Of a stretch of DNA of 64,000 nt, positions 5,712 to 26,511 are shown piece by piece. Source of the DNA: an uncultured Eubacteriales bacterium (GTDB lineage Bacteria; Bacillota; Clostridia; Oscillospirales; CAG-272). Under the pieces are notes generated by a model. The model worked only from the letters and a program-made list of their open reading frames with translations, was not told the origin of the DNA and ran no database searches. The position numbers and the translations under genes were made by a program. Numbering within the stretch: the first letter of the stretch is position 1; each line of letters begins with the position of its first letter. Where the stretch lies: NCBI GenBank assembly GCA_900545935.1, contig URAP01000004.1, positions 13,808 through 77,807 on the forward strand, written 5' to 3'.

Positions 5712-5728
5712 TTTTGATTTTGCGTATG
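5712..5728. repeat. 17-nt direct repeat, copy 1 (ttttgattttgcgtatg)
   Basis: An exact 17-mer that recurs at 6113-6129. The two copies bracket the small-ORF cassette. Confidence 0.8.
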
Positions 5729-5790
5729 CGATGTATTATTACAATAGATGTGTTGCGCCGAGAAAAAAGAATGGCAATTGAGAGCCGATT

Positions 5791-5840: not shown

Positions 5841-5960
5841 TTAAAGATCGGGAAGTTCAATAGGTGCTCTGTTATCGCTGGTAGTAACCGTCTCGCCGCT
5901 CATTTCGATAAACAGCTCCTCTGCGAAGAGAACGACCTCTGCTTCAGGACGTACAAACAT
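5841..5960 (-). CDS. 39-aa acidic small protein/peptide (MFVRPEAEVVLFAEELFIEMSGETVTTSDNRAPIELPDL)
   Basis: This is an internal ATG of the 100-aa track ORF, preceded by AAAGGAGA with a 7-nt spacer. It has its own promoter candidate and its own terminator. The upstream part of the 100-aa ORF has no SD sequence and odd composition. Confidence 0.5.
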   Translation of the reverse strand: MFVRPEAEVVLFAEELFIEMSGETVTTSDNRAPIELPDL

Positions 5961-6054
5961 ATCATTATCTCCTTTCTGAAAACAATAGATATTCGATCGA
6001 TCTGGAAACCAAACATGTATTGTCCCACACCACAGGACACACATACACAATGGA

Positions 6055-6083
6055 AGCATAGCACAATGTTTGTGATTTGTCAA
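6055..6083 (-). promoter_or_regulatory. promoter candidate for the small ORF
   Basis: On the minus strand: TTGACA, a 17-nt spacer, then TGc-TATGCT (extended -10-like). Confidence 0.45.
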
Positions 6084-6112
6084 GCCCGGAGCACAAAAAA
6101 CAAGATCACGGA

Positions 6113-6129
6113 TTTTGATTTTGCGTATG
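6113..6129. repeat. 17-nt direct repeat, copy 2 (ttttgattttgcgtatg)
   Basis: Identical to 5712-5728. It lies just upstream of the -35 of the TerB-gene promoter and about 30 nt upstream of the small-ORF promoter on the other strand. Confidence 0.8.
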
Positions 6130-6137
6130 TGAAACAT

Positions 6138-6166
6138 TGACACGGGCGACTATATATGATAAAATA
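6138..6166 (+). promoter_or_regulatory. sigma-70-like promoter candidate for the TerB-N/C operon
   Basis: TTGACA (6138-6143), a 17-nt spacer, then TAAAAT (6161-6166). The ATG at 6226 follows with a GGAAGGAGGGAG SD. Confidence 0.55.
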
Positions 6167-6225
6167 TTATGATTTAAATTCGGCCTTGATTTTGATCGAT
6201 ATCGGCACCGGAAGGAGGGAGAGCA

Positions 6226-8580
6226 ATGCCGGATAAAAGGTATGACGGACACAGTAAAAAAATTGTCGATGAATTCGGCAATGAATATGCCAACGGATTC
6301 GGCGCGGGAGCAGATGGGCATTTCGGCTCGGACGACGGTGCCGTCGCCAATTCATTCTCCGGCAGCTTCGACGATGATGTTTTTGAGGCATTGCCCCCGA
6401 TACCGAAAAAATATTTGCGCGAGTTTTCACCCGATACCGAGACTCCGCTAATTGAGATAGGTAAGGATGACAGGATAATTGATCCTGTTTCGGTACAGGG
6501 CAGCGGCGAGCGCTCAAGGGATAGGCTGAGTGATGGTATACCTCCATCGAATATGCTGACGTACGGCGGGCATGACGCCTCGGATGATACTCCGGAGGCG
6601 CGGAAGGATCACGAAAAGGACAGGATGTCTGCACGGTGTGAGGATACCGACGGTAATACCGATAAGCGCGGCTCGAGCCTTGTAAATGTGCCGATAGAGC
6701 ACGACGGAGGGGAGACGTCGGCGAATGAAGATGATTCGATATCCGACACGACGGATAGTAGAAGTGACCCCGGTATCGGAGACGTACTGCCGCAGAGCGG
6801 CGGAAAGGGCGGATGGCGCGGCATAGCACCCGCTCCCGTACCGGCGGCAGGTCAGCGGCAGCGCAGTGCCGCAGACGAAGAGATATCCGAGCTGTTTGCA
6901 CGGCTGCGCAGCAGAAGCGGCTCCGGACAGCATAGGGAAAACGATACCGACTTTTCGATAGCGGTGCCGCGCAGCAGCTCGTTCCGTGATACCGGACTTA
7001 TCCGCTCATATGAGCCGAGGCATCCGTTTCTGCGTCATGTGGATATACTGACGTGGCCGTCGAGCTACACGTTTTATGAGCGTTTCCGTGCCGACGCAGT
7101 CTCCTTTTTCTCACGAGAGGGGCGGGAGGTACCGTACGCGGAATTTGTCTCATATGTGCCGCAGTATTCGATGATGACCGGTGCACAGCTTTCATATTAT
7201 TTTTACTGGCGCAGCTGCATGCGTGCGGGCAGGCTGATAAAGGCATCGCGCAGCTATGTGCTGCTGTTCATCTATGAGGTGATAAATCTGCCCGACCTTA
7301 TCGCACCTACCGACGGTGTACGGCAGCTCTGCCGCGTTATAACCGGCTATGCCGAAACGGTCATCGGAGTACGTAATTCGGTCATACCGTGGCTGCGCGA
7401 CTACTGCCTTATTCACGGCGTATCGCTGCCGGAGGAATATATGCGCGATATCGCGGCGATAGCAGGGAGATATACGGCGCTGCCGGAGTTTTTCGTCTGT
7501 TATAATGCCGAAACGGGAAAAGCCGATCCGCTGTCGCTCGCCTCGGTGCTTTCGCACTATTCGTGGCAGGAGAGCAAGTATATGACGGCTGCGGCGCGCA
7601 GCTGCTACGAGCGTCATATGCCCGCAGCGATAGCGGCGGCGATGGCTGCTATGGGAACCGGGACGATAACCGACGGCATCCCGCAGCGTTATATCGCCGA
7701 GTCGTACAGCGGAGCCGTCTGCTCCTCGGAGGTGAAATGCCGCTTGCGTATAGACTATATCCGCGCGTCTGACTGTGCGGATGCCGAGGCTGTCACGGTG
7801 GCGGTCAAGTATGCGGAAAACCAGGTGCGCAGACTGCTCGGAATAAAGTCGCGGTTTAAGATATCGGCGCTGCCGAGCGGTATGCGCGATGCGATAGATC
7901 TATACTTTGAGCCGGTCTTTGCACGAGAGGAGAGCATGCGTCGAACGATGCTCAGAAAAGCATCCGCACCGCCCGAGGTCGCCCCGGAGTATGAGCATTT
8001 TTATGCGCCCGAGAGCAGCGGAATGTCATTCGATCGGGCTTTGGAGATCGAACGTCGATCGTGGCGAATGACAGAGCGGCTCGAGGAGGCATTCTCGGAG
8101 GATGCGGAGGCATCCGCGCATACGGGAAAAACCGATGCGGATAATGCAGATGAGCGCGATACGGCTGTATCCGGTATGATGGATGATGCGGCGTCGAATG
8201 CCGACTATATGGAGAATGCCGGCAGTGCAGTCGATGCAGCTCACGAGGCGGAGAATAACGGTGCGTCGGCGGCTTTGGCTCACGGAACGGCGGCTCACGG
8301 AACGGATAAGCTTGGTGTATCAGGCAGAAAGGCTTCGAGCAGTCCGGAGATAGCCGGGCTGAGATTGCTGCTTAACGGAGACAGTGCGGGCTTTGAGCTC
8401 TGCGCATGCGCCGCTGCGCTGCTGCCCGAGGCGCTGTGCGACCGTATAAACGAGCTTTTGTACGACGATGTCGGAGATTCGACGGCGGAGCATACCGCAG
8501 CCGGATATTCGATCATAGAGGATTACAGAGACGAAGCGGAGGAGTATCTCCGCAGATATGATTCTGGGGAGGTATGCTGA
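6226..8580 (+). CDS. TerB-N / TerB-C domain protein with a long acidic, low-complexity N-terminal region
   Basis: 784 aa. The central block VPYAEFVSYVPQYSMMTGAQLSYYFYWRSCMRAGRLIKASRSYVLLFIYEVINL matches my memory of the TerB_N domain. The C-terminal block LLPEALCDRINELLYDDVGDSTAEHTAAGYSIIEDYRDE matches the TerB_C pattern. The stop TGA (8578-8580) abuts the next ATG. Confidence 0.8.
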   Translation: MPDKRYDGHSKKIVDEFGNEYANGFGAGADGHFGSDDGAVANSFSGSFDDDVFEALPPIPKKYLREFSPDTETPLIEIGKDDRIIDPVSVQGSGERSRDRLSDGIPPSNMLTYGGHDASDDTPEARKDHEKDRMSARCEDTDGNTDKRGSSLVNVPIEHDGGETSANEDDSISDTTDSRSDPGIGDVLPQSGGKGGWRGIAPAPVPAAGQRQRSAADEEISELFARLRSRSGSGQHRENDTDFSIAVPRSSSFRDTGLIRSYEPRHPFLRHVDILTWPSSYTFYERFRADAVSFFSREGREVPYAEFVSYVPQYSMMTGAQLSYYFYWRSCMRAGRLIKASRSYVLLFIYEVINLPDLIAPTDGVRQLCRVITGYAETVIGVRNSVIPWLRDYCLIHGVSLPEEYMRDIAAIAGRYTALPEFFVCYNAETGKADPLSLASVLSHYSWQESKYMTAAARSCYERHMPAAIAAAMAAMGTGTITDGIPQRYIAESYSGAVCSSEVKCRLRIDYIRASDCADAEAVTVAVKYAENQVRRLLGIKSRFKISALPSGMRDAIDLYFEPVFAREESMRRTMLRKASAPPEVAPEYEHFYAPESSGMSFDRALEIERRSWRMTERLEEAFSEDAEASAHTGKTDADNADERDTAVSGMMDDAASNADYMENAGSAVDAAHEAENNGASAALAHGTAAHGTDKLGVSGRKASSSPEIAGLRLLLNGDSAGFELCACAAALLPEALCDRINELLYDDVGDSTAEHTAAGYSIIEDYRDEAEEYLRRYDSGEVC

Positions 8581-9954
8581 ATGGCGGTTGAAAATAAGCG
8601 TGAGCGTGTGCCGAAGCGGGTGCTTTCGGCGCTTGTCAGCTCGGTAGCCGCAGGAGTCGTTCCGAGAGTCGGCGCGCCCTATATAGCCATCGGAAGGGCA
8701 GATGAGCTTGAGGCGCTGCTCTCCGATCTCGAAACTATAAGTGAGGGCGGCTCGGCTATGCGCTTTATCATAGGCAGATACGGAAGCGGAAAGAGCTTTC
8801 TCATGCAGCTGCTGCGCGGGTATGCCTGCGAGCGCGGCTTTGTTACGGCGGATGCCGACCTCTCGCCCGAGCGCAGAATATGCGGCGGCGCGGGCACCGG
8901 TATTGCAACCTACCGTGAATTGATAAAGAACCTCGCATGCAAGACCTCGCCGGACGGCGGTGCGCTGCCGGTAATGATCGCGCGTTGGCTTTCCGATGTT
9001 CAGAGTGCGCTCGTTGCGGACGGCTATGCATACGGCAGCGAGGATTTCTCGGAGGAGATGTCGCGTAGAATACTCACTACATCGCGCGAGCTTCAGGGAT
9101 ATGTCGGCGGCTTTGATTTTTCCGCCGTAATAATGACCTATTACCGTGCCGTTCAGAACGGCGACGACGATATGCAGAGCCGCTGCATGAAGTGGCTGCG
9201 CGGAGAATACCGCACAAAGACCGAGGCTAAGCGCGAGCTGCCGATCGGCGATATTATCGGCGACGATAATTGGCAGGACATGATAAAGCTGCTCGCGGTC
9301 TTTGCGCGAAAGACGGGCTATCGCGGACTTGTCGTGTTCATCGACGAATGCGTAAATCTGTATAAGATACCGAACCGCATCTCGCGCGAGAATAACTACG
9401 AAAAGCTGCTCTCGCTCTTCAACGACACCATGCAGGGGCGCTCGGAGGGGCTCGGGTGGATATTCGGCGGAACGCCGCAGTTTCTCGAGGACCCGCGCCG
9501 AGGGCTGTTCTCATATGAGGCGCTGCGCAGCAGACTGTGCGACAGCCGCTACGATTCGCCAGAGTATAAGAATCTGCTCAGTCCCGTTATCAGGCTGCGC
9601 CGTCTATCGGATAACGAGCTGCTCGCACTGCTTGCCCGCATGACCGAGCTGCATGCGCAGTACTACGGGTGGGAGCCGCCGGTAACGCCGGAAAATATCG
9701 AGAGCTTTCTCTCCCGCTGTCTCGAGCGTGCGGGCGCGGACACGCTGCTTACCCCTCGCGAGCTTCTGCGCGATTATATGGCGGTGCTCGGCATACTGAT
9801 GCAGAATCCCGATGCGACCTTTGACGGCGTTGTAGGCTCATCCGGCGTTGCACTCGGCGCGCCTGCCGAGCCGTCTGCGGAAGCCGACGGCGAAAAAATA
9901 CAAAAATCCGTACGTTCCGGCGCAGAAATTACGGCGGAAGATATTGACCTTTGA
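8581..9954 (+). CDS. P-loop ATPase of the DUF2791 / BREX-type ATP-binding family
   Basis: 457 aa with Walker A in FIIGRYGSGKSFLMQLLRGY and Walker B-like LVVFIDECVNL. It is translationally coupled to the TerB gene (TGAATG junction). Confidence 0.8.
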   Translation: MAVENKRERVPKRVLSALVSSVAAGVVPRVGAPYIAIGRADELEALLSDLETISEGGSAMRFIIGRYGSGKSFLMQLLRGYACERGFVTADADLSPERRICGGAGTGIATYRELIKNLACKTSPDGGALPVMIARWLSDVQSALVADGYAYGSEDFSEEMSRRILTTSRELQGYVGGFDFSAVIMTYYRAVQNGDDDMQSRCMKWLRGEYRTKTEAKRELPIGDIIGDDNWQDMIKLLAVFARKTGYRGLVVFIDECVNLYKIPNRISRENNYEKLLSLFNDTMQGRSEGLGWIFGGTPQFLEDPRRGLFSYEALRSRLCDSRYDSPEYKNLLSPVIRLRRLSDNELLALLARMTELHAQYYGWEPPVTPENIESFLSRCLERAGADTLLTPRELLRDYMAVLGILMQNPDATFDGVVGSSGVALGAPAEPSAEADGEKIQKSVRSGAEITAEDIDL

Positions 9955-10016
9955 GCCGGAATATTTTATAATATACAGTAATGCCGCCGTGCGCGGCTGA
10001 GAAAGGATATCAGACC

Positions 10017-12659
10017 ATGAAATGGACCTCACTTAACGACCTTCGCGAGATGTATCTCTCATTTTTCGAGTCAAAGGGACATCTCCGTCACAAGAGCTAT
10101 CCGCTCGTACCTATCGACGACAAGTCCATACTGCTCATCAATGCGGGTATGACCCCGCTGAAAAAATACTTCACCGGTGAGGTGGAGCCTCCGCGCCACC
10201 GCATGACCACCTGTCAGAAGTGCATCCGTACCCCGGATATCGAGCGTGTCGGTATCACCGCGCGCCACGGTACATATTTCGAGATGCTCGGAAACTTCTC
10301 GTTCGGAGATTATTTTAAGAACGAGGCTATTCCGTGGGCATGGGAATTCTGCACGAAGGTGCTTGAGCTGCCAGAGGACAAGCTGTGGGTGACCATATAT
10401 CTCGACGACGACGAGGCATACGACATTTGGCACAACAAGATAGGCGTTCCCGCCGAGCGCATCGTCCGCCTCGGTAAGGAGGATAACTTCTGGGAGCACG
10501 GCAGCGGTCCATGCGGTCCTTGCTCAGAGATACATTTTGATCGCGGCGAGAAGTACGGCTGCGGAAAGCCCGACTGCAAGCCCGGCTGTGACTGCGACCG
10601 CTTTATGGAGTTCTGGAACCTCGTATTCACGCAGTTCGACGGCGACGGAAAGGGCGGCTATACCCGTCTTGCAAACCCGAACATCGACACTGGTATGGGA
10701 CTCGAGCGTCTTGCATGTCTTATGCAGGGCGTTGACAATCTGTTCGAGGTCGACACCGTCCGCAATATCATGCTTGCTGTCAGCGAAAAGGCGAATGTCA
10801 AGTACGGCGAGGACGAGAAGAAGGATATTTCGCTCCGCGTCATCACCGACCATATAAGAAGCACGACCTTCCTTATCTGTGACGGCGTTGTTCCCTCGAA
10901 CGAGGGCAGGGGCTACGTGCTACGCCGTCTGCTCCGCCGCGCCGCACGTCACGGCAGACTGCTCGGTATCAAGGGCACATTCCTTGCCGACATCGTTCCC
11001 GTCGTAGCGCGTGAGAATTTCAGCGAGTATCCCGAGCTGACCGAAAAGCTCGATTACATCAAAAAGGTCGTTGCCATCGAGGAGGAGCGCTTTGCCGCTA
11101 CCATCGACAGCGGGCTTGATATTCTTGATTCGATGATAAAGGAGACCAAGGCTGCCGGCGCGGACACGCTTCCCGGAGAGGATGTATTCAAGCTCAGCGA
11201 TACATTCGGCTTTCCCGTAGACCTTACTCGCGAGATAGCGCTTGAGGCGGGACTCGGAATAGACGAGGAGGGCTTTGAGGCGCTGCTCGCAGAGCAGAAA
11301 AAGCGCGCAAGAGCCGCACGCGCCGCAATGGGCGATCTCGGCTGGACAAGCGACGCTATTCCCGCACTCGGAAGGCTTCCGGCTACCGAGTTTACCGGAT
11401 ATACCGAGACCGAGAGCGAGGCACACGTGCTTGCGCTTATCGACGCAGAGACGACCGAGGAGCTGCCCGACGCATCGGACGGCAAGGTAATGTTAGTTCT
11501 CGACCGTACTCCTTTCTACGGAGAGGGCGGCGGTCAGGTCGGCGACACGGGTATTATCGAATGCGCGGGACGCAGCATTCCCGTCGTCGATACAAAGAAG
11601 AACAGTGGCATCTATATGCATATCTGCGAGCTTGACGGCACACCCGTTTCGGTCGGCGATACCGTTACGGCACGCATAGACGCGGTTCGCCGCGAGGCTA
11701 TCCGCCGCAATCACTCCGCCGCGCATCTGCTTCAGGCGGCACTGCGCACCGTTCTCGGCGACCATGTCGAGCAGGCAGGCTCTTATGTGGACGCGGAGCG
11801 CGTGAGATTCGACTTTAAGCACTACTCGGCTATGACCGAGGAGGAGCTTGCCCGCGTTGAGGCTCTTGTAAACGAGGAGATACTGCGCGGCGAGGAGATA
11901 GTTACCGTCGAGACCGATGTCGAGACCGCAAGGAAGGACGGCGCTACCGCACTCTTCGGCGAAAAGTACGGCAGCGTTGTCCGCATGGTAAAGATGGGCG
12001 ATTTCTCGACCGAGCTGTGCGGTGGTACACATGCGTCGAACACAGCAAAGCTCGGACTCTTCAAGATAATCTCAGAGACCGGAATCGCCGCAGGCGTTCG
12101 CCGTATCGAGGGTACGACCGGGCTCGGCGTGCTTGCGCTGCTCTCGGAGCGTGACACGCTAATCTCCGAGACCGCAAAGGAGCTTAAGGCGGCAAATGTT
12201 CACGACATCGCCCGCCGTGCAGCGGCGCTCCAGACCGAGCTCCGCAGCGCAAAGCGCGAGACCGAGGTGCTCAACTCTCGCATCGCCGCCATGCAGACCG
12301 AGGCTATTCTCGGCAGCGCGGTAGAGGTAGGTGCGGTCAAGGTAGTGACCAAGCAGACGAGCGGCAGCGGCGTTGATACCGCAAGAGCTATCTGTGACGA
12401 GATAAAGGCATCGCACGACGACTATGTTGTCGTTATCTCCACCGATTGCGACGGAAAGCTCAACTTTATCTGCGCATGCGGTAAGGCTGCCGTTGCGGCA
12501 GGCGCAAATGCCGGAGCTATCCTCCGCGAGATAAGCGCTATTGCAGGCGGTAAGGGCGGCGGACGTCCCGATTCCGCTACCTCCGGCGCAAAGGATGCGG
12601 ATAAGATCCCCGCAGCACTTGCAGCAGTTGCGGATACCGTACGCGGGATGCTTAAGTAA
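10017..12659 (+). CDS. alaS: alanine--tRNA ligase
   Basis: I place the start at MKWTSLNDLREMYLSFFESKGH (the track ORF starts 36 nt earlier). It has class II motifs, FEMLGNFSFGDYFK, and the editing-domain HSAAHLL and CGGTH motifs. Confidence 0.97.
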   Translation: MKWTSLNDLREMYLSFFESKGHLRHKSYPLVPIDDKSILLINAGMTPLKKYFTGEVEPPRHRMTTCQKCIRTPDIERVGITARHGTYFEMLGNFSFGDYFKNEAIPWAWEFCTKVLELPEDKLWVTIYLDDDEAYDIWHNKIGVPAERIVRLGKEDNFWEHGSGPCGPCSEIHFDRGEKYGCGKPDCKPGCDCDRFMEFWNLVFTQFDGDGKGGYTRLANPNIDTGMGLERLACLMQGVDNLFEVDTVRNIMLAVSEKANVKYGEDEKKDISLRVITDHIRSTTFLICDGVVPSNEGRGYVLRRLLRRAARHGRLLGIKGTFLADIVPVVARENFSEYPELTEKLDYIKKVVAIEEERFAATIDSGLDILDSMIKETKAAGADTLPGEDVFKLSDTFGFPVDLTREIALEAGLGIDEEGFEALLAEQKKRARAARAAMGDLGWTSDAIPALGRLPATEFTGYTETESEAHVLALIDAETTEELPDASDGKVMLVLDRTPFYGEGGGQVGDTGIIECAGRSIPVVDTKKNSGIYMHICELDGTPVSVGDTVTARIDAVRREAIRRNHSAAHLLQAALRTVLGDHVEQAGSYVDAERVRFDFKHYSAMTEEELARVEALVNEEILRGEEIVTVETDVETARKDGATALFGEKYGSVVRMVKMGDFSTELCGGTHASNTAKLGLFKIISETGIAAGVRRIEGTTGLGVLALLSERDTLISETAKELKAANVHDIARRAAALQTELRSAKRETEVLNSRIAAMQTEAILGSAVEVGAVKVVTKQTSGSGVDTARAICDEIKASHDDYVVVISTDCDGKLNFICACGKAAVAAGANAGAILREISAIAGGKGGGRPDSATSGAKDADKIPAALAAVADTVRGMLK

Positions 12660-13820: not shown

Positions 13821-13899
13821 TCTCATAGACTTTACTCGTCTATTCTGCTGTATAAGATTGGCATAGTGCCATGCAGCTATGCCGTAATTTAATAAAAAA

Positions 13900-13934
13900 T
13901 AAAAAGCAGGTCATTGGGGGCACTCACTTAACGA
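13900..13934. repeat. attL-like site (aaaaagcaggtcattgggggcactcacttaacgac)
   Basis: Matches the reverse complement of 28511-28545 at 26 of 35 positions by hand alignment. Seven of the nine mismatches fall in the central 8 nt. Confidence 0.55.
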
Positions 13935-13982
13935 CAGTTCAAATTAACTGGTTTTAGTGGCGTCTTCAAGCGGTGCCAACAG

Positions 13983-14024
13983 AAAGACCACATCTTTGGA
14001 GTAAAATCCTTGGATGTGGTCTTT
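13983..14024 (-). terminator. terminator of the six-gene defence operon (possibly bidirectional)
   Basis: A 12-bp stem (aaagaccacatc / gatgtggtcttt) lying 24 nt past the stop of the 811-aa gene, with T-rich tracts on both sides. Confidence 0.55.
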
Positions 14025-14047
14025 TGCACTAATAAGGTTTCAAATGA

Positions 14048-16483
14048 TCAAATATGAAGTTTTTCAAATAATTCATCAAACTCATTAAATGCCGTCATAA
14101 AAGCATCCATAATCTTGTCACCAATTTGCCATTCATCAGGATATGTCATATCCTCAGGATCATAGTGGTCAGCATCCGTTCTTCCTCCATTTAATTGATC
14201 CATATATACTCCAAACTGATCTTTCGACATAGATACATTCTGGATAGCAATCCCCAGTGTATTCCAATTGTTTCTTATTACTTTTTTAAGACTGGAGAAA
14301 TACATAATGAATTTCTTGTGATCAAAAAACTCCGTAAATTGGCAAGAGTTAATGTCAGGGATAGGCGTACATCTTGGATTAATTAATATTTGCGACCTGG
14401 AAAAACAGTTTTTCATAAATGCTATCCCTGCCACATCTCCACCGTTGTATGTAAAATACTGAATTATATACTTTTTTAGTTTTCGCTCACATAACTGTAC
14501 TTTGTCTTGTATATATTGTCTGCGTTCATCATTTGACATATCACTTGGTGATTTGGTTTCAGTTCTGCAAATATAGTTTTTTAATCCATAGATAGTGAAA
14601 TCTATAAAACAAGTTAAAGCGTCATATTCAATTAATCCGTATTTAATCAAATGATCAATAATACTAACATCATCGCTTTCTACCTTTTTATACTTTCCTG
14701 GAGTCAAAGCAAATTTTTTGAGCATTTCATGCTCTTCTTTATATATGCAAAGATGCTGAAGAATTGTTTTAAAAACTTGGCTTCCCTTTACTGAATTATT
14801 GAATTCAGATACCAACGCAGAAAAAGTTGGTTTCGATATTTCGTATACCTTGTCAGGGGAACGGTATTGTTTAATGTTGTCAAACATGAAAGCGCTAAAT
14901 TGTCGTATGGCATATGGCTGTCCGCCAAAAGTCCTATTTATATCAACATAGATTTCATTAAAGGCAACATTACTATAGCCGCCCAGTGTGTTTAACATAT
15001 ATTTTGTTTGCTCATCTGTAAAGATCGGTAAATATGTTTTTGAAAAATCAGCGCAATTATGAATTCGCTCATACATCGGATTATCGCAGGATGCACCTTT
15101 GTATTCAATGATACTTCGCTCGTTTATGGTCGAATTAACTCCACACACGATTAATGAACAGCCCGAATCTCGTAAAGCGCCCCAAAATCCTTTATAAGAA
15201 TCGAGACTTTGCCAAACTAGAGATGTAGCTGTATTATATGTTATCAATTCTATTTCATCAATGGCAAGAACGAAGTTTGGATAATCCCTTGTATAGAGCT
15301 TTACGTCTTCAACGAAACATTGAGTTGGGCGTTTTTCGTAATCGTCTTCTGTGCTAGCCAGTCTTAGCCTCTCCTGAAAGTCATGCCGAGATTCGCCATC
15401 ACCTTGTATAAATCCTGTGGTATCGATTCGAATATGCCTTGCAATATCAAACAGAGCGGTTTTCCAGGAGTCAACCGGTTCCAATTCGGAACGCGCTTCT
15501 ACGACAGAATACTTAATCTCGTCGTTGTCAAGTCTACGTGTTACAGCCCTCAGAACAGATGATTTTCCGCTTCTACGCAGCCCAAATATTCCAGAGTGCT
15601 TTCCTTCACGACATCTTTGAACAATAGAATCAGCAATTTTTCCACGGTCACCGAACAATAGTTGTTCGTCTTCTATGGGGTTTTCTTCCCCTAGCATATT
15701 GTTCTCAAAGAGGTATTCGCCAAATCTATCTAGAATTAATCTTTCAAGCTGACTATTGCTTTCACAATTAAGTATTTCTTCAAATGTAAACGGAATAATT
15801 GCTGCATCTGTTCCGCCTTTCATTTTATCAATTTCAGATTTAAGGTGTATTGCATTGCTTATCAGCATATAAAAATTTACTAACGGACGCCGTTCAGCAA
15901 TTTCCTTCCTCTTTCGAATGAAACTAATCGCCTTAACTGTATTCTGCTGCCATGAACGATTATCAAAGTGTGAAAATAGCAAAAGGAACTCATACATACC
16001 GTGTATATATGGCTTTAGGAACTCAGTTGCTCCAATCAAGCAAAACGGAAAAGAAGCTCCGCCAAATCCCATATCATGATGACCAACATGAGAAACATAA
16101 AGAACACTCTTTAATTTTTGAAGCACTTCATACTCGCCAGAATTCGGTTTTAGATGTTCTTCACGCATACGAACACGATCCATATTCCGATAGTATCCAG
16201 GTGTATAAAACTCTCTTAATGGGTGTTGTTCAGATGCTTTATCTGTATCGCCAGTGTTGTCTTTTTCAATTAATCGTACGCCTAACGCAGATGGCCTACC
16301 TTGCGCATCTGTGAAGGTAGAAGAGTATTCGACAGTATCCCCCATAAAAAAATCTGACATTTCCAAACCATCAGACAATGATCTACTGTCAAAATAGATT
16401 GATTGTCCATTGTCAAGTTTTATAAACCCATATTCTAGCCCGTTAGTTTTATTCGTTTTTATACAGTCTACTTTGCCTTTCAT
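14048..16483 (-). CDS. 811-aa protein: N-terminal cold-shock/OB-like domain, about 200-aa unassigned domain, Arch_ATPase/ORC-like P-loop NTPase, long helical C-terminus
   Basis: The N-terminus KGKVDCIKTNKTNGLEYGFIKLDNGQSIYFDSRSL...GDTVEYS resembles a CSD. Walker A is in GIFGLRRSGKSSVLRAV and Walker B in FVLAIDEIELI. The start lies 9 nt after the Mrr stop and has a GAGG SD. Confidence 0.8.
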   Translation of the reverse strand: MKGKVDCIKTNKTNGLEYGFIKLDNGQSIYFDSRSLSDGLEMSDFFMGDTVEYSSTFTDAQGRPSALGVRLIEKDNTGDTDKASEQHPLREFYTPGYYRNMDRVRMREEHLKPNSGEYEVLQKLKSVLYVSHVGHHDMGFGGASFPFCLIGATEFLKPYIHGMYEFLLLFSHFDNRSWQQNTVKAISFIRKRKEIAERRPLVNFYMLISNAIHLKSEIDKMKGGTDAAIIPFTFEEILNCESNSQLERLILDRFGEYLFENNMLGEENPIEDEQLLFGDRGKIADSIVQRCREGKHSGIFGLRRSGKSSVLRAVTRRLDNDEIKYSVVEARSELEPVDSWKTALFDIARHIRIDTTGFIQGDGESRHDFQERLRLASTEDDYEKRPTQCFVEDVKLYTRDYPNFVLAIDEIELITYNTATSLVWQSLDSYKGFWGALRDSGCSLIVCGVNSTINERSIIEYKGASCDNPMYERIHNCADFSKTYLPIFTDEQTKYMLNTLGGYSNVAFNEIYVDINRTFGGQPYAIRQFSAFMFDNIKQYRSPDKVYEISKPTFSALVSEFNNSVKGSQVFKTILQHLCIYKEEHEMLKKFALTPGKYKKVESDDVSIIDHLIKYGLIEYDALTCFIDFTIYGLKNYICRTETKSPSDMSNDERRQYIQDKVQLCERKLKKYIIQYFTYNGGDVAGIAFMKNCFSRSQILINPRCTPIPDINSCQFTEFFDHKKFIMYFSSLKKVIRNNWNTLGIAIQNVSMSKDQFGVYMDQLNGGRTDADHYDPEDMTYPDEWQIGDKIMDAFMTAFNEFDELFEKLHI

Positions 16484-16492
16484 TCTTTTACC

Positions 16493-17377
16493 TCAAACTC
16501 TCTCGAAGAAATCCTTATCGACTTCGTAAATTGTCCGTTCTTTCACGCCAAGTCCATATTCGATGAGCTTGCTGATGAATTCCTCGCCGTCAATAAGATC
16601 GATCTGCTGCTTTCCGGCATTTGATGCTTCTTCGCGGGCGGCCTTTGTAAAGCTGCCTGTGGTAATGAAAACCCCCTTCTCAATATCCGTTGTCAGCGAT
16701 CCACGGAAATCACGGATATCCCCTGCGCAAACGCTACCAGTATAGCGTTTGCATTGGAACGCCACGTTGAAGCTGAAAATGCCGTTGATACGCAGCTTGC
16801 CGGTTCCGTCAATCCCGCCATCGCTGGATTTTTTGGTAACGGTAACCTGGGAGAATCCGCATTCCCGGAGCAGTAGCATTGCCAGACGCTCGAAAGCATA
16901 AGGGTTCATGCTGTGCAGGGTTTCCGCCAGTTCCGCTCTCCAAGGTTCCGAATCCTCGATGGTATCGATACCGTCATTGGAGGGATCTCCGTCTTGGAGA
17001 ATCGTATCGACCTCCTTCTCGGTTTTGCCCTTCAGCTTCGTGACCTTGATATTTTCGGTCACTTCTTCCCGAGTTATGGATTTGCGTCCGGCATACTCCG
17101 GGGTGATCATCCATACGCCACGCTTGCTGTTGATGATAGCGCCGAGGTTTTTCAGCCTGGTACGCGCCCAGGCAAGCTGATACTCGAGTTCTGTCTGCTG
17201 TGACGCATTGCCCTTATGAGGCTCGTCAACCACATCATCGGAGAGTTTCAGCTTCTTTATGATATTATCGCGTATCTCGTCAATTGTAGCAGAACCGCCC
17301 AATTCGACTAGCACAGCAAACAACGGTTCCACCAACTCAAGCTGTGTGGGACTTTTGATTTTCTTTAATCTCGCCAT
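16493..17377 (-). CDS. Mrr-family restriction endonuclease (Mrr_N winged helix + Mrr_cat PD-(D/E)xK)
   Basis: 294 aa. The N-terminus is LFAVLVELGGSATIDEIRDNIIKKL...AWARTRLKNLGAIINSKRGVWMITPEY. The C-terminus is FERLAMLLLRECGF...SSDGGIDGTG...AFQCKRY...GVFITTGSFTKAA, the classic Mrr catalytic core. Confidence 0.85.
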   Translation of the reverse strand: MARLKKIKSPTQLELVEPLFAVLVELGGSATIDEIRDNIIKKLKLSDDVVDEPHKGNASQQTELEYQLAWARTRLKNLGAIINSKRGVWMITPEYAGRKSITREEVTENIKVTKLKGKTEKEVDTILQDGDPSNDGIDTIEDSEPWRAELAETLHSMNPYAFERLAMLLLRECGFSQVTVTKKSSDGGIDGTGKLRINGIFSFNVAFQCKRYTGSVCAGDIRDFRGSLTTDIEKGVFITTGSFTKAAREEASNAGKQQIDLIDGEEFISKLIEYGLGVKERTIYEVDKDFFERV

Positions 17378-17388
17378 ATTCGCCTCCG

Positions 17389-18891
17389 TTATAGACCCTG
17401 AAAGTAAACCAGGCTACTTTGAACTTGGGGCCAATCAATCTCCAAGCCAACGCCAATTCTGTATGCGGCTTTTCCACCCTTCTCTTTTACAAACCCCATC
17501 TTTTTCAGGAATGAGATTTCGGCCTGAAAAGATTTTCTTGTTCCACCAGCACGGATGGTACTTTTCTTTGACAAGTGCAAATCGTTGGCGAATACGTCAT
17601 CAAGCCAATTCAAGTATTCTTGCGGTTTAAACACATGGTTGCCACGAGCATCGGTTTGTGTGAAAGCGAAAAGATCGGACGAGAACTTTTCTTCTGATAG
17701 TTTGTAGAAATAATGAAGCATCGCTCCATACTGACCATTCTGAAGCACGGATGCGCGGAGAATCTCAAGGGGTATTCCAGCGTAAGGAGTTCCAATTCTC
17801 TCACACGCATCAACATATTTGTAACCCAGATCTGTTAGGGTACCGTCTGGTGCGACAAAACCAATATGATACAGCCCCGAATCAATTACTTCCCGATAAC
17901 TATGAGAGTCGCTTCTAACTTTTCTAGCGTATTCCTCCCAGGCATCAGCCTCACTTGTTGTCCCAGCATTTAGCTTGCTAACAATTTTGGATTTGATTGA
18001 ATCCACACGACCGCTAAACAGATTCTGAAAGCGAGTGCTGTCAATCATAATTCTCGTTGATACAGCATTGACAGTATACGGAGTAGTAGAAGAGTAAATT
18101 GGCATCAGGTCGTTCCAGAAATAGTAATTAAACCATACATATCTCCACGCTTTGTCCGAAATTGAATCACCGGGAGTGTTTGAAAGATACTTAAAAGCAT
18201 CAGCAGTAGAGTCTATTCTCCTGACGGCATTCTCCAATTCAACAGGAATATGTATATTATCCAAGTTATCGCCTGTTGCAGTTATTACCTTTACAGCTTG
18301 GCAAAATCTAAAAAAGGCATCAGGGTGACTCATTCCTTCCCTCATATGGGCCCATAATGTTGATGCACTTCCCATTGTTGCCGTACCAGCACCTGTTCTG
18401 GCAATCCGTCGACACGAAGGCAAGGAAATATCTCTAACGCAGTTGAGCTTACCCAGAAAAGGCCTTGTAGCTGAGAGATTTGGGGGAGAATACGTATAAA
18501 TGCTTATAGGTATATCAGGGGAGACTGCATCAATGACACGACATACGTGCTCCCCTGGAGCGGAATGCGATGAGTAACGCTCGGGGATAACCATCACAGA
18601 AGCATCATACCCCTTTTCAAGATAGGCATATGATTGTCCCAAGGCGGTAAGTATGCCATGAACCCCCTCATTAGGGCGTTTGAACTCAAACGCAATGTTT
18701 ATATCATTAGAGGTTGTGTTTTGTGCGCTTAACACTCCATCTGCCAAGGGCCATTGATGCCCGCCCTCACGTCCGGCAAATACGGACCACGCACCAGCTG
18801 TTCCCATAGTTCCGAAGTAATTCGCTTGATTTTGCATAATCAATTCAGCAACTTCTGATGATGCATATGCGGCTTCAACATCGTGGCTCAT
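17389..18891 (-). CDS. 500-aa candidate type II restriction endonuclease (PD-(D/E)xK-like N-terminus, wHTH-like C-terminal repeats)
   Basis: Its start overlaps the methyltransferase stop by 4 nt (ATGA). It has a D-x5-E-x-K-like motif (SNDINIAFEFKRP). The C-terminus has GFVAPDGTLTDLGYKYV and MGFVKEKGGKAAYRIGVGL, which look like winged-helix recognition units. No family recognised by eye. Confidence 0.55.
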   Translation of the reverse strand: MSHDVEAAYASSEVAELIMQNQANYFGTMGTAGAWSVFAGREGGHQWPLADGVLSAQNTTSNDINIAFEFKRPNEGVHGILTALGQSYAYLEKGYDASVMVIPERYSSHSAPGEHVCRVIDAVSPDIPISIYTYSPPNLSATRPFLGKLNCVRDISLPSCRRIARTGAGTATMGSASTLWAHMREGMSHPDAFFRFCQAVKVITATGDNLDNIHIPVELENAVRRIDSTADAFKYLSNTPGDSISDKAWRYVWFNYYFWNDLMPIYSSTTPYTVNAVSTRIMIDSTRFQNLFSGRVDSIKSKIVSKLNAGTTSEADAWEEYARKVRSDSHSYREVIDSGLYHIGFVAPDGTLTDLGYKYVDACERIGTPYAGIPLEILRASVLQNGQYGAMLHYFYKLSEEKFSSDLFAFTQTDARGNHVFKPQEYLNWLDDVFANDLHLSKKSTIRAGGTRKSFQAEISFLKKMGFVKEKGGKAAYRIGVGLEIDWPQVQSSLVYFQGL

Positions 18892-19955
18892 TTTGCCACC
18901 TCCTCTGACAAGTATGTCGCTATCTTACGCATAAAAGGTTCAGCCATCTTTGGCGGGACAGCATTACCAACCTGAATACACTGTTGCTGCCTTGTCCCAA
19001 AGAAAATATGTGTGTCGGGAAAAGTTTGAATTCTCGCAGCCTCCCGTGCCGTCAGAGTACGATTAAGCGTCGGATGGATAGGAAAGGCGTTATGACCTGG
19101 AACCATAGTTGTGGACGGGCGGTTTCTGTCCAGTCGTTTAAACACATGACTATAGTTCGCCACTTTCCCCGTTTTTGCATCCCGGCGAGTGGCGACAGCC
19201 AACTCAGGCGGAAGGTCATCAACGTTTAATTTGCACCCTTCTTTCACATAAGCGTATCTTGCTGCAACAATCGGTTTATGCGCTAACGGAATATGATTTG
19301 GAAAATCGTTCTCTTTCCCAACTAAATCCATTATTGCAGAACCGACTGTAGAGTACTCGGGTGTCTTGCCTGAACCAATGGGAAAGTGTGATTTTTCGGG
19401 AGGAGCATACTCTATTCCCAGGCAGTTTCCAATCATGAACATTCGATACCGCTCTTGAGGGACACCATAATCAGCAGCACAAACAATCTCACACCAAATA
19501 CTGTCGTAGCCTAGGGTTCTAAACTGATTTTTTACTTCTTCAATGAATAGGCCTCCATCGAGATTCGTAAAGCCCTTCACATTTTCCATAAAGAAAAACT
19601 TCGGCCTAAGAATAGAAACGACTCTTATAAATTCATAAACCAAATGGTTACGAGGATCCTCCTTGGGATTATATCCCTTGGTGTTAACAAACCGTCTCTT
19701 TCCAAACACCGAAAACCCCTGGCATGGAGGGCCTCCGACGATGAGATCCACTGATTCTCCCTGAAGCACAGATTCAATCTCTTCAGCAGTAAGTTCCTTG
19801 ATGTCTTTTTGGATTAGAGGAATCTCTGGGAAATTATACTTATGTGTTTCAGAAAAGGTTGGATCAATTTCGTTCGCCATCAGAACATTAAAACCGCTAT
19901 TTTTCAATGCGATAGTCAACCCTCCGGCGCCAGAAAACAAGTCGATAGCATTCAA
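18888..19955 (-). CDS. DNA (cytosine-5)-methyltransferase, copy 2
   Basis: Motif I is DLFSGAGGLT, motif IV GGPPCQGFS, motif VI ENV, motif VIII QERYR, plus TAREAARIQTFPD and motif X GNAVPP. Confidence 0.93.
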   Translation of the reverse strand: MNAIDLFSGAGGLTIALKNSGFNVLMANEIDPTFSETHKYNFPEIPLIQKDIKELTAEEIESVLQGESVDLIVGGPPCQGFSVFGKRRFVNTKGYNPKEDPRNHLVYEFIRVVSILRPKFFFMENVKGFTNLDGGLFIEEVKNQFRTLGYDSIWCEIVCAADYGVPQERYRMFMIGNCLGIEYAPPEKSHFPIGSGKTPEYSTVGSAIMDLVGKENDFPNHIPLAHKPIVAARYAYVKEGCKLNVDDLPPELAVATRRDAKTGKVANYSHVFKRLDRNRPSTTMVPGHNAFPIHPTLNRTLTAREAARIQTFPDTHIFFGTRQQQCIQVGNAVPPKMAEPFMRKIATYLSEEVAK

Positions 19956-21004
19956 TTTTTATCACCTCCGTTGCCAGATAAAAGCGATAGGACAAATTTC
20001 CCGAGTTTTTCTGAAAACATTGGCGGAACAGCATTCCCTACTTGATGGCCTTGCTGCCTACGATTTCCTTCAAATATCATCTCGTCGGGGAATGTCTGAA
20101 TACGTGCGGCTTCTCTTACTGTAAGGCTTCTATTCAATTCAGGATGAATAGGGAATGCATCGTTTCCGGGAACCATGGTCAATGCAGGGCGTTTTCTGTC
20201 TAAGCGTTTATATGTGTTGCCGAAGTTTCTTCGGTATAACTCCGGTGGAAGGTTATCTTCCGGCAGGCGTCCTCCTTCTGGAATCAACTTATAGCGCTCT
20301 ATGTTTTTGGGTGTATGTTTCAATGCCACATGATTAAACTCCGGACAATCACCCAGATCGACCAGGTCTTTAAGCACATCCCAGCAGTTATTCCATGGCA
20401 GCAATCCATCTTCCGGATTGTCGGAATGATCTCGCTTGGGGAAAGAAACGGGCAAGCCAAGTCTATTGCCGAGAATGATTACGCGTTCACGTATTTGAGG
20501 GACACCATAATCTGCCATATTGATCAAACGATAGTCAACAGAATACCCGGCGTCCCGAAGCATTGACAAAACGCTTTGAAGATAGTTTCCACCATCTTTT
20601 GTAATGATGCCTTTAACATTTTCCATCACAATAAACTTAGGCTGAAGCGCACGTATGAGGTTAGCATAGGTGATTACGAGTTCATTTCGTGGATCAAAAG
20701 CGTACCTTTTCTGCGGATCAGAGGAGACACGTTTGCCTATCGTAGAAAAACCTTGACAGGGAGGGCCACCAATTACCACATCAACAGTACCGTCATCAAG
20801 GAATGCCTTTATTTCATCTGGCGTAACAGTACGGATATCCCTGTTGATCATAGGAATATTAGGGAAATTTTTTCTATGGGTCCTCTCTACAAGATTGTCA
20901 TTGTCGATACAGAGCTTTATATCAAACCCCGCTCTTTCAAATCCAATATGCAATCCGCCTGCCCCAGAAAAAAGATCTATGGCTGACAATTTGCCGTTGC
21001 TCAT
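19952..21004 (-). CDS. DNA (cytosine-5)-methyltransferase, copy 1
   Basis: Motifs seen: DLFSGAGGLHIGF, GGPPCQGFS, ENV, QIRERV, TVREAARIQTFPD and GNAVPP. It has 4-nt overlaps with both neighbouring genes. Confidence 0.93.
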   Translation of the reverse strand: MSNGKLSAIDLFSGAGGLHIGFERAGFDIKLCIDNDNLVERTHRKNFPNIPMINRDIRTVTPDEIKAFLDDGTVDVVIGGPPCQGFSTIGKRVSSDPQKRYAFDPRNELVITYANLIRALQPKFIVMENVKGIITKDGGNYLQSVLSMLRDAGYSVDYRLINMADYGVPQIRERVIILGNRLGLPVSFPKRDHSDNPEDGLLPWNNCWDVLKDLVDLGDCPEFNHVALKHTPKNIERYKLIPEGGRLPEDNLPPELYRRNFGNTYKRLDRKRPALTMVPGNDAFPIHPELNRSLTVREAARIQTFPDEMIFEGNRRQQGHQVGNAVPPMFSEKLGKFVLSLLSGNGGDKN

Positions 21005-21216
21005 TTTTTCTCCTCCAATTCGTGCCTGATATCGAAATCTATACTACGGCTCTTGCAAAAATCATCGATAAGCTTCATTGTCTTATATGTGGGTTTCGTT
21101 TTGCCGGATTCCCATCTGTTGACTGTGGCAAACGACACCCCCAGTTCTTTTGCAAAAGCCTCCTGGGAGAGAAAGCACTTCTGACGAATTTCTCTTATAT
21201 CATCACAGAACCCCAT
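21001..21216 (-). CDS. XRE-family HTH protein, controller (C-protein)-like first gene of the R-M operon
   Basis: 71 aa with the HTH LSQEAFAKELGVSFATVNRWESGKTKP. It overlaps the first methyltransferase start by 4 nt. Confidence 0.8.
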   Translation of the reverse strand: MGFCDDIREIRQKCFLSQEAFAKELGVSFATVNRWESGKTKPTYKTMKLIDDFCKSRSIDFDIRHELEEKK

Positions 21217-21251
21217 ATGGCACCTCCATCTGCTTGCAAAGCTATAACAGT

Positions 21252-21280
21252 ATTATAACATGTATCTATGAATTTTTCTA
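21252..21280 (-). promoter_or_regulatory. promoter candidate for the C-protein/R-M operon
   Basis: On the minus strand: TAGAAA, a 17-nt spacer, then TGT-TATAAT (extended -10). A tgttata direct repeat overlaps the -10. A TTGCAA palindrome lies between the -10 and the SD and may be an operator. Confidence 0.4.
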
Positions 21281-21615
21281 CCCCTTTCGGAAATTTTCCG
21301 AGAAGGGCTTTTTCATTCTTCGATTCTGTCAAGATGTTTTGCGATGAGCGTTTGGAAATCCTCTTCATCCATGCCCTGGGATTTCAGCAACTGATGGATC
21401 CCTACGAATTTATCCAAATACGCATTGAGAGACCAGAATGGTGTCTGATTTCCACGCACTTCATCAACTATCACCTTGTCTCTTGTTTCTTCGTCACCGA
21501 CCACATCCTCATGAGGATTCCAGAACGAAGAAAAATATGCTGCCCAGTCTTATGAGCTTCCCCGGGTGATGCGTCTCATCGGCACACTAGTTACCTTCCT
21601 CGACGGAATACGGTG

Positions 21616-24966: not shown

Positions 24967-24974
24967 CACGCCAA

Positions 24975-25554: not shown

Positions 25555-25559
25555 GAATA

Positions 25560-26507: not shown

Positions 26508-26511
26508 TCCT

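What the first reader, a model, noticed from the sequence alone, without database searches (positions are those of the whole stretch)
6226..9954. TerB-N/TerB-C protein translationally coupled to a DUF2791 ATPase, without the helicase usually found with them, embedded among core genes
The 784-aa protein combines an acidic, probably disordered N-terminal region of about 270 aa with TerB_N- and TerB_C-like domains. Its stop abuts the ATG of a DUF2791/BREX-type P-loop ATPase (TGAATG junction).

From memory, TerB-N/TerB-C + this ATPase + a SWI2/SNF2 or DEAD helicase (sometimes with a nuclease) is a described conflict-system neighbourhood. The three-gene Shango defence system has a TerB/ATPase/helicase composition. 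Here the next gene is alaS, so no helicase or nuclease is present. The pair has host-like composition and sits between ftsQ and alaS. That argues for either a minimal two-gene variant or a housekeeping or envelope-stress role for a module usually interpreted as defence.
Basis: partly seen in the sequence, partly recalled or inferred. Interest (0 to 1): 0.55.

Follow-up and report, generated by a model that had tools for sequence, protein, structure and literature searches.

The report
Shango defence pair lacking its helicase
Two coupled genes of the Shango anti-phage system, without the helicase that normally completes it, sit just upstream of the essential alaS gene in a group of gut Clostridia and are still kept intact by selection, so the pair appears to work without a neighbouring helicase.

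Summary
ORF 6226-8580 is an SngA-type TerB_N/TerB_C protein. ORF 8581-9954 is an SngB-type DUF2791 AAA+ ATPase (PADLOC SngB 532 bits). They are joined by TGAATG, and alaS follows.

No SngC helicase lies in the 64-kb window, or within about 10 kb beyond each end in contigs of the same species.

All ten first-sampled relatives with SngB at 62-69% identity carry the canonical SngA-SngB-SngC. Every relative at 73% or more has SngA-SngB-alaS. That alaS-linked clade had 100/100 bootstrap support.

Both genes are under purifying selection (SngB dN/dS 0.09, SngA 0.17). Their site-by-site conservation matches that of helicase-bearing relatives, so the pair is not a decaying remnant.

Other helicase-less SngAB pairs turned up in unrelated housekeeping contexts: 18 of 62 distinct classifiable loci. 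No third gene is shared among them.

I read this as a stable two-gene variant of Shango. Whether a helicase is supplied from elsewhere in the genome could not be tested. The function, defence or otherwise, is inferred rather than shown. Shango's own mechanism is unknown.

The parts
5712..5731 (+). Distal copy of a 17-20 nt direct repeat (TTTTGATTTTGCGTATG) in the ftsQ-sngA intergenic region
   Evidence: two exact copies in the window against 0.03 expected by chance; found only in loci of the same species. Function unknown; listed as a possible regulatory site.
6113..6132 (+). Proximal copy of the same direct repeat, ending 4 nt before the -35 hexamer of the sngA promoter-like site
6137..6165 (+). 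Promoter-like site for sngA-sngB (TTGACA, 17 nt, TAAAAT, with TG before the -10 hexamer)
   Evidence: 11 of 12 consensus matches. This is a consensus match only, not shown to be active.
6210..6219 (+). Ribosome-binding site of sngA (GGAAGGAGGG)
   Evidence: Read from the sequence; ends 6 nt before ATG 6226.
6226..8580 (+). sngA: a 784-aa TerB_N/TerB_C protein of the Shango family
   Evidence: PADLOC SngA 125 bits. Pfam TerB_N 56.7 bits and TerB_C 21.8 bits. dN/dS 0.17 against the 92% relative. AF2 model of residues 262-784 has pLDDT 81.7.
6226..7035 (+). sngA N-terminal 270 residues: conserved short motif (about residues 49-73) followed by a variable, acidic, low-complexity linker
   Evidence: Composition. 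Alignment with 14 homologues. D51 and F53 conserved in both helicase-bearing and helicase-less groups.
7075..7611 (+). TerB_N domain of SngA (residues 284-462)
   Evidence: Pfam PF13208, 56.7 bits. dN/dS 0.10. High-confidence helical model.
8071..8535 (+). TerB_C-like region of SngA (residues 616-770): helix, then a disordered acidic linker (about 631-703), then a small helix-helix-helix-strand-strand-helix module
   Evidence: Pfam PF15615 at 21.8 bits, below the cutoff. AF2 model. Only weak, non-significant Foldseek resemblance to winged-helix DNA-binding domains (E about 0.6).
8566..8583 (+). Translational-coupling junction: sngB ribosome-binding site GGGGAGG inside sngA, then TGA stop directly abutting the ATG
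8581..9954 (+). sngB: a 457-aa DUF2791/BrxC_BrxD-family AAA+ ATPase of the Shango family
   Evidence: PADLOC SngB 532 bits against BrxD 156 bits. Pfam PF10923 495 bits. NCBIfam BrxD equivalog 157 bits, below the 350 cutoff. dN/dS 0.09. AF2 with Foldseek gives an AAA+ fold.
8773..8796 (+). Walker A motif of SngB (GRYGSGKS, residues 65-72)
   Evidence: G65, G68, G70, K71 and S72 are invariant in alignments A1 and A3.
9328..9348 (+). Walker B motif of SngB (LVVFIDE, residues 250-256)
   Evidence: D255 and E256 are invariant.
9944..9972 (+). Promoter-like site for alaS (TTGACC, 17 nt, TATAAT) overlapping the last codons of sngB
   Evidence: Conserved in L002 and L103 but absent from L003 and L101, where only a ribosome-binding site separates sngB from alaS.
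10017..12659 (+). alaS (alanyl-tRNA synthetase), the conserved downstream partner in gene order; no terminator-like site between sngB and alaS
   Evidence: Pfam 643 bits. Start inferred. Terminator scan. The sngB-alaS gap is 27-62 nt in all alaS-clade loci.

Best explanation
The pair is a helicase-less derivative of the three-gene Shango system (SngA-SngB-SngC). It is fixed immediately upstream of alaS in one clade of gut Clostridia, inherited vertically with alaS, and still functional as a two-protein module.

Shown:
- The family assignments of both proteins.
- The absence of sngC nearby.
- Conservation of the sngA-sngB-alaS order across species.
- Purifying selection on both genes.
- Intact ATPase motifs in SngB.
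- The lack of any other shared neighbouring gene among helicase-less loci.

Inferred mechanism:
- The two proteins are made in fixed proportion by translational coupling and form a complex.
- SngB is an oligomeric AAA+ ATPase. It has a large helical insertion between Walker A and Walker B, resembling HslU/ClpX and ORC/Cdc6.
- SngA is a soluble scaffold or sensor with a conserved N-terminal peptide motif, a TerB_N core and a small C-terminal module that may be a winged helix.
- ATP binding or hydrolysis by SngB switches the complex in response to an infection-related cue, probably foreign nucleic acid.
- In canonical Shango the Lhr/BrxHI-like helicase SngC would act alongside or downstream of this module. 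In this clade that step is dispensable, and SngAB alone gives the selected benefit.
- The pair is probably transcribed from its own promoter (6137-6165) and read through into alaS.
For: Family assignment:
- PADLOC SngA 125 bits and SngB 532 bits; Pfam TerB_N and BrxC_BrxD.

Helicase present in relatives but absent here:
- All 10 loci first fetched with SngB at 62-69% identity have a 740-790-aa SngC directly after sngB (PADLOC SngC 787-820 bits for the eight that were scanned).
- All loci with SngB at 73% identity or more have alaS there instead.
- A tblastn search with 10 SngC queries found nothing in the window or in any alaS-linked locus.
- Contigs of the same species extend about 10 kb beyond both window ends with no helicase.

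Functional maintenance:
- dN/dS against the 92% relative is 0.09 for SngB and 0.17 for SngA (0.08-0.10 in the folded core), compared with 0.035 for AlaS.
- Walker A and B motifs are invariant.
- Per-site entropy profiles of SngB and SngA are the same in helicase-less and helicase-bearing groups, with no relaxed segment.

Vertical inheritance:
- The alaS clade is monophyletic in 100 of 100 bootstraps.
- SngB and AlaS divergences run in parallel.

Recurrence of the two-gene form:
- 18 of 62 distinct classifiable loci lack SngC. They sit next to unrelated housekeeping genes: GH20, BacA-FtsK, RNase Y, FeoB and PGA_cap.
- SngA and SngB are the only gene families shared across these loci; every other shared family is confined to a few related loci.

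Fold and expression:
- AAA+ fold from AF2 and Foldseek: HslU, ClpX, ORC/Cdc6, E from 1e-5 to 1e-3.
- Coupling junction, promoters and absence of a terminator.
Against: - The complete genome could not be searched, so a helicase encoded elsewhere is not excluded.
- The unchanged constraint profile of SngB and SngA is what one would expect if a helicase partner still existed somewhere.
- No experiment in the literature found here shows which Shango genes are needed for defence. The mechanism of the three-gene system is itself unknown.
- The SngB model is only moderately confident (pLDDT 67) and its TM-scores are low, 0.3-0.4.
- The winged-helix reading of the SngA C-terminus rests on non-significant matches (E about 0.6).
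- An SngA-SngB complex, its oligomeric state and its trigger are all inferred.
- A single origin for all helicase-less lineages is not supported (0-2 of 100 bootstraps). The wider 'family' of two-gene forms may therefore be several independent losses.
Confidence: 0.5

Rival explanations
1. The system is still three-component. The helicase gene moved elsewhere in the chromosome, or a resident Lhr-type helicase or a second complete Shango locus supplies the activity in trans. In that case sngAB next to alaS is simply a split Shango.
For: SngB and SngA show no relaxation of constraint anywhere after loss of the neighbouring helicase. This fits an unchanged set of partners. SngC is an Lhr/DEXH-like helicase, and such helicases have housekeeping paralogues in bacteria (for the SngC/BrxHI clade).
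Against: In the survey, 52 of 85 classifiable loci have sngC within 2.5 kb after sngB, most directly adjacent. A split arrangement would therefore be exceptional. No SngC lies within 6-10 kb on either side in any helicase-less locus, or within about 84 kb around the pair in this species. Helicase-less pairs recur in several lineages and contexts.
Confidence: 0.25
2. The pair has been domesticated for a housekeeping or stress function unrelated to phage defence. That function is tied to its fixed position in an operon with alaS, for example nucleic-acid or chromosome surveillance during growth or sporulation.
For: The pair has host-like GC content and sits among core genes. It is inherited vertically with alaS across species, with a 27-62 nt gap and no terminator. 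In some lineages there is no separate alaS promoter. No relatives were found on viral contigs. Canonical Shango loci of related Clostridia also sit among core genes such as tig-clpP-clpX and nrdD.
Against: Nothing links the proteins to alanine or tRNA biology. No T-box or other known RNA element is present. Other helicase-less pairs are not next to alaS. Both proteins keep the same architecture and conserved sites as defence-type Shango components. Conserved gene order with alaS may be historical accident.
Confidence: 0.15
3. The pair is an inactive remnant of Shango. It is kept only because disrupting it would disturb transcription of the essential alaS gene downstream.
For: Defence systems often decay by gene loss. 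In L003 and L101 alaS has no recognisable promoter of its own in the 27-30 nt gap, so it may depend on upstream transcription.
Against: Selection for read-through transcription would not hold amino-acid change to dN/dS 0.09 (SngB) or 0.08-0.10 (SngA core). It would also not keep Walker motifs and every conserved site of the family intact across lineages as far apart as 73% SngB identity. In the window, L002 and L103 alaS has its own promoter-like site.
Confidence: 0.05

Closest known systems
Shango anti-phage system (SngA TerB-like protein, SngB ATPase, SngC DEAD/DEAH helicase) of E. coli and Pseudomonas aeruginosa PA14
   Same: SngA and SngB are clear family members (PADLOC 125 and 532 bits). 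Gene order, orientation and tight coupling of sngA-sngB match those of canonical loci in related Clostridia. Domain architecture and conserved residues also match.
   Different: There is no SngC. The described and tested systems are three-gene operons in defence islands or hotspots. Here the pair sits in a core-gene context, directly upstream of alaS, and is inherited vertically. Anti-phage activity of a two-gene form has not been reported in the literature searched.
BREX BrxD ATPase, found with BrxHI/BrxHII helicases
   Same: SngB shares the Pfam BrxC_BrxD/DUF2791 family. SngC of related loci is closest to BrxHI after SngC itself (about 410-420 bits). An ATPase-plus-helicase pairing is therefore common to both systems.
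   Different: SngB scores 157 bits against the NCBIfam BrxD equivalog, which has a 350-bit cutoff, and 156 bits against PADLOC BrxD compared with 532 for SngB. No methyltransferase, PglZ or BrxC is adjacent; the neighbours are ftsQ and alaS.
Other TerB-containing defence systems (Bunzi BnzA, Dionysus DinB) and the tellurite-resistance TerB protein
   Same: All are linked by name, and distantly by the TerB-associated domains. TerB proteins are proposed to take part in membrane or stress surveillance.
   Different: SngA here has TerB_N and a TerB_C-like region but no hit to the TerB domain itself. It has no predicted membrane segment. No pore-forming or membrane partner is present.
AAA+ ATPases with inserted domains (HslU, ClpX) and initiator/loader ATPases (ORC/Cdc6)
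   Same: These are the best structural matches of the SngB model (E from 1e-5 to 1e-3, probability 1.0). SngB also has Walker A and B motifs and a C-terminal helical lid.
   Different: TM-scores are low (0.3-0.4) and sequence identity is 9-15%. The SngB model is only moderately confident (pLDDT 67). This is a fold-level resemblance only, not family membership.

Membership tests
Shango (SngABC) defence system | SngA: a TerB_N/TerB_C-type protein | tested here: met
   PADLOC SngA 125 bits, E 1e-36, covering profile positions 81-526 of 528. Pfam TerB_N 56.7 bits.
Shango (SngABC) defence system | SngB: a DUF2791 P-loop ATPase encoded directly after sngA | tested here: met
   PADLOC SngB 532 bits, E 4e-160. 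TGAATG junction.
Shango (SngABC) defence system | SngC: a DEAD/DEAH helicase in the same operon | tested here: not met
   alaS follows sngB. A tblastn search with 10 SngC queries found nothing in the 64-kb window, and none lies within about 10 kb beyond either end in contigs of the same species. The rest of the genome was not available.
Shango (SngABC) defence system | Protection against phage when expressed | not testable with these tools
   Shown for three-gene systems only.
BREX (BrxD as a component) | ATPase reaches the BrxD equivalog score | tested here: not met
   NCBIfam NF033438 at 157 bits against a cutoff of 350.
BREX (BrxD as a component) | Neighbouring PglX/BrxX methyltransferase, PglZ and BrxC | tested here: not met
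   The flanking genes are ftsQ/ftsZ and alaS/mscS. PADLOC found no BREX components among the large ORFs of the window.
Tellurite-resistance TerB proteins | TerB domain (PF05099) and ter-operon neighbours | tested here: not met
   A Pfam scan at E of 0.01 or less returned only TerB_N and TerB_C. There are no ter genes nearby.
AAA+ ATPases | Walker A and Walker B motifs and the AAA+ core fold | tested here: met
   GRYGSGKS and LVVFIDE, invariant across homologues. Foldseek matches to HslU, ClpX and ORC at E from 1e-5 to 1e-3, with the caveat of a moderate-confidence model.

The most novel reading that the evidence does not exclude
SngA-SngB is an autonomous module, inherited vertically on the chromosome, whose selected function needs no helicase at all. 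On this reading, SngAB is the core sensing and acting unit of Shango and SngC is an accessory. In gut Clostridia the pair may have moved from mobile defence cargo to a near-housekeeping surveillance function expressed together with alaS.
Probability: 0.3. Interest if true: 0.65.

Novelty: new variant of a known kind. Interest (0 to 1): 0.45.

Why it matters
Shango is a validated anti-phage system whose mechanism is unknown. Detection tools are built around the three-gene form (from memory: PADLOC and DefenseFinder require all three genes), so two-gene loci like this one would go uncounted.

A natural two-gene form that has stayed under purifying selection across species suggests that the TerB_N/TerB_C protein and the AAA+ ATPase form a functional unit on their own. 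It also offers a simple comparison, sngAB against sngABC from sister lineages, for working out what the helicase contributes.

In addition, components of a system usually read as mobile defence cargo can sit stably in core operons of abundant gut Clostridia. This bears on how 'incomplete' defence systems are interpreted in genome surveys.

Tried and rejected
1. A T-box or other leader RNA placing sngAB under alaS-type control. An Rfam gathering-threshold scan of the whole window found only two tRNAs. Rejected.

2. alaS replaced sngC at a syntenic locus, suggested by an AP_endonuc_2 gene downstream in L016, L017 and L103. The proteins are only 27% identical, so they are not orthologues. Rejected.

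3. A replacement partner gene in helicase-less loci. All-against-all clustering of neighbours in 20 helicase-less loci found no family shared across them other than SngA and SngB; every other shared family was confined to a few related loci. The 740-aa ORF after sngB in L067 is a spurious antisense ORF with no Pfam or BLAST matches.

4. An extra domain in SngA compensating for the helicase. The architecture is the same in both forms, and N-terminal length varies in both.

5. A single origin for all helicase-less lineages. They lie in neighbouring parts of the NJ tree, but the split is recovered in only 0-2 of 100 bootstraps. Left unresolved.

6. Solved structures. phmmer against PDB found nothing for either protein. 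Foldseek of the SngA model gave no significant match.

7. Carriage on phages. No relatives were found in IMG/VR viral contigs with these search patterns.

8. The 2012 Anantharaman/Iyer/Aravind paper on Ter systems could not be retrieved. Statements about it rest on citations and on memory.

9. Genome-wide search for a trans-encoded helicase.


Full report
**What is in the sequence**

ORF 6226-8580 (784 aa) and ORF 8581-9954 (457 aa) lie on the plus strand. The stop of the first abuts the start of the second (GGGGAGG-TATGC-TGA-ATG).

The first protein hits Pfam TerB_N above threshold (56.7 bits). It hits TerB_C below threshold (21.8 bits against a 26.3 cutoff). It aligns almost end to end with the PADLOC SngA profile (125 bits).

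The second protein is a BrxC_BrxD/DUF2791 ATPase (495 bits). It scores 532 bits on PADLOC SngB against 156 on BrxD. It fails the NCBIfam BrxD equivalog cutoff (157 against 350 bits). Walker A (GRYGSGKS) and Walker B (LVVFIDE) are present.

The first 270 residues of SngA are acidic and low in complexity. They also carry the short N-terminal motif found across the family.

Upstream, on the opposite strand, are an ftsQ-type POTRA gene and ftsZ. Downstream are alaS and an MscS channel gene. The alaS ORF opens at 9981, but the conserved start MKWTSLNDL with its ribosome-binding site is at 10017. GC content matches the neighbours.

**No helicase nearby**

A tblastn search with ten SngC helicases from related loci finds nothing in the 64-kb window. 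The window is a human-gut-type metagenome scaffold from a Clostridia organism. Contigs of the same species that extend about 10 kb past each window end carry sporulation, transport and polysaccharide genes but no helicase. The rest of the genome could not be examined.

**What relatives show**

SngB is very well conserved among Clostridia. The best 120 database hits are all at least 63% identical.

In the ten loci first fetched whose SngB is 62-69% identical to the window's, a 740-790-aa DEAD/Helicase_C protein follows sngB. Eight were scanned and score 787-820 bits on PADLOC SngC. One has a PHP-domain gene in between. These are canonical Shango loci.

In every locus whose SngB is at least 73% identical, alaS follows instead, 27-62 nt after the sngB stop. 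This holds for L002 (92%), L014, L018, L003/L015, L101/L102, L103 and several copies from the same species.

This alaS-linked group is monophyletic in 100 of 100 NJ bootstraps of SngB.

The upstream neighbour is not conserved. It is ftsQ here, a tyrosine recombinase in L002, glmS-glmM in L003 and L101, and a HAD hydrolase in L103. Nucleotide homology with L002 begins inside sngA. The conserved unit is therefore sngA-sngB-alaS.

**Is the pair decaying?**

No. Against the 92% relative, dN/dS is 0.09 for SngB and 0.17 for SngA. Within SngA it is 0.10 in TerB_N, 0.08 in the middle region, and higher in the two disordered or variable ends. AlaS gives 0.035.

ATPase motifs and more than 150 other SngB positions are invariant across helicase-less and helicase-bearing sequences.

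Per-site entropy profiles of SngB (421 columns) and SngA (515 columns) are essentially the same in the two groups. No segment shows relaxed constraint, and there are no fixed differences between groups.

This rules out a remnant kept only for transcriptional read-through. It cuts both ways on the trans-helicase question. It shows the function is retained. It is also what one would expect if a helicase partner still existed somewhere.

**How common is the two-gene form?**

A metagenome scan with an SngB alignment gave 80 more loci. Of 96 loci with a full-length sngB:
- 52 have sngC just downstream;
- 33 do not (13 followed by alaS, 4 by a PGA_cap gene, 16 by other genes);
- 11 are too short to tell.

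After removing near-duplicates the counts are 44, 18 and 9.

Downstream genes in the other helicase-less loci are unrelated housekeeping genes: GH20, BspA-type LRR with radical SAM, BacA-FtsK, RNase Y and FeoB. No gene family other than SngA and SngB is shared across these loci; other shared families were confined to a few related loci.

Most helicase-less lineages sit in neighbouring parts of the SngB tree, between helicase-bearing clades. A single origin is not supported by bootstrapping. At least one loss, and probably several, occurred.

The sample is biased toward relatives of the window, so the 29% figure is not a general frequency.

**Structure and likely mechanism**

The AF2 model of SngA residues 262-784 is confident (pLDDT 81.7). 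It shows:
- a mostly helical core covering TerB_N and the middle region;
- a long helix carrying the conserved EYE..Y...IE..SW motif;
- a disordered acidic linker;
- a small C-terminal helix-helix-helix-strand-strand-helix module.

Foldseek finds no significant PDB match. The best matches are about 80-residue winged-helix DNA-binding domains at E about 0.6, which is only a hint.

The SngB model is moderate (pLDDT 67). It matches AAA+ ATPases with inserted domains (HslU, ClpX) and ORC/Cdc6 at E from 1e-5 to 1e-3 with low TM-scores.

Neither protein has a predicted membrane segment.

From this I infer a soluble SngA-SngB complex in which an oligomeric AAA+ ATPase acts as a nucleotide-driven switch on a scaffold or sensor protein. 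The papers I could search and read offer no mechanism for Shango. Every step beyond the fold assignments is therefore inference.

**Expression**

A strong promoter-like site (TTGACA, 17 nt, TAAAAT) lies 61 nt before sngA. No terminator-like site separates sngB from alaS. A second promoter-like site overlaps the end of sngB in the window, L002 and L103. In L003 and L101 only a ribosome-binding site lies between the genes. Co-transcription of sngAB with alaS is therefore likely, but not shown.

**Comparison with known systems and verdict**

The two proteins are members of the SngA and SngB families. The locus fails the third defining feature of Shango, the helicase, so I do not file it as a Shango system. 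I file it as a two-gene variant derived from Shango. It is not BREX and not a Ter cluster.

I found no description of a conserved helicase-less form in the papers searched. That search covers open-access literature only.

Its weight depends on whether a helicase is supplied from elsewhere, which remains open. Interest is moderate (0.45). Novelty class: a new variant of a known kind.

Noticed in passing
window 13827-28815: A 15-kb low-GC (0.33-0.45) integrative element lies between mscS and a tRNA-Leu/tRNA-Gly pair. It carries an 811-aa STAND-like ATPase with no family assignment, an Mrr-type restriction enzyme, a type II restriction enzyme with two C5 cytosine methyltransferases, a D5-type primase-helicase and a large serine recombinase. 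It is absent from a strain of the same species (L022) and from L002, so it is strain-specific defence cargo 4 kb from the sngAB pair but separate from it.
   Followed up: partly
window 9944-10017: The alaS ORF is called from ATG 9981, but the conserved start is ATG 10017. The 62-nt leader holds a promoter-like site and a GC-rich hairpin (GCCGCCGTGCGCGGC, 9984-9998). The hairpin is conserved in L002 and, with one change, in L103. It could be an alaS regulatory element. From memory, E. coli AlaRS represses its own promoter through a palindrome.
   Followed up: partly
window 5712-5731 and 6113-6132: Two exact copies of TTTTGATTTTGCGTATG lie 401 nt apart in the ftsQ-sngA intergenic region (0.03 expected by chance). 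One ends 4 nt before the sngA -35 hexamer. The repeat was found only in loci of the same species. It may be an operator or a duplicated promoter-upstream element.
   Followed up: partly
window 5841-6143 (minus strand): An ORF of up to 100 aa with no family hit lies between ftsQ and sngA. It has a good terminator-like hairpin just downstream (5823-5800) and a promoter-like site at 6083-6055. In a contig of the same species it is called as only 39 aa (L105). It may be a small peptide gene or a non-coding transcript divergent from sngA.
   Followed up: no
L008 11331-12203; also L047 and L069: In some canonical Shango loci a 290-aa PHP-domain (phosphoesterase) gene is inserted between sngB and sngC. 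In L054, L056 and L059 about 1.5 kb separates sngB from sngC. Four-gene Shango variants therefore exist in Clostridia.
   Followed up: no
L017 (GCA_054273695.1), L016, L019: Canonical and helicase-less Shango loci of related Clostridia sit among core genes (tig-clpP-clpX ... nrdD; BacA-FtsK-RecD2) rather than in obvious defence islands. SngB stays 62-69% identical across many species. This is unusually stable for a defence component.
   Followed up: partly
window 6226-12659 compared with L002: Synonymous divergence is uneven along the conserved block: dS is 1.14 in sngA, 0.51 in sngB and 0.37 in alaS. Nucleotide homology with L002 starts only inside sngA. The cause could be recombination at the 5' end of the block, or codon-usage constraint on alaS.
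   Followed up: no
L023 5971-8595: One strain of the same species has a 2.6-kb insertion between alaS and mscS that is absent from the window. Its content was not examined.
   Followed up: no
window 35876-44575 and 57323-62119: There are three very large secreted-type proteins (1388, 1457 and 1598 aa). They carry CBM9, phosphodiester glycosidase (NAGPA) and choline-binding-repeat domains. A cell-wall polysaccharide gene cluster lies nearby (glycosyltransferases, LicD, Wzy-like).
   Followed up: no
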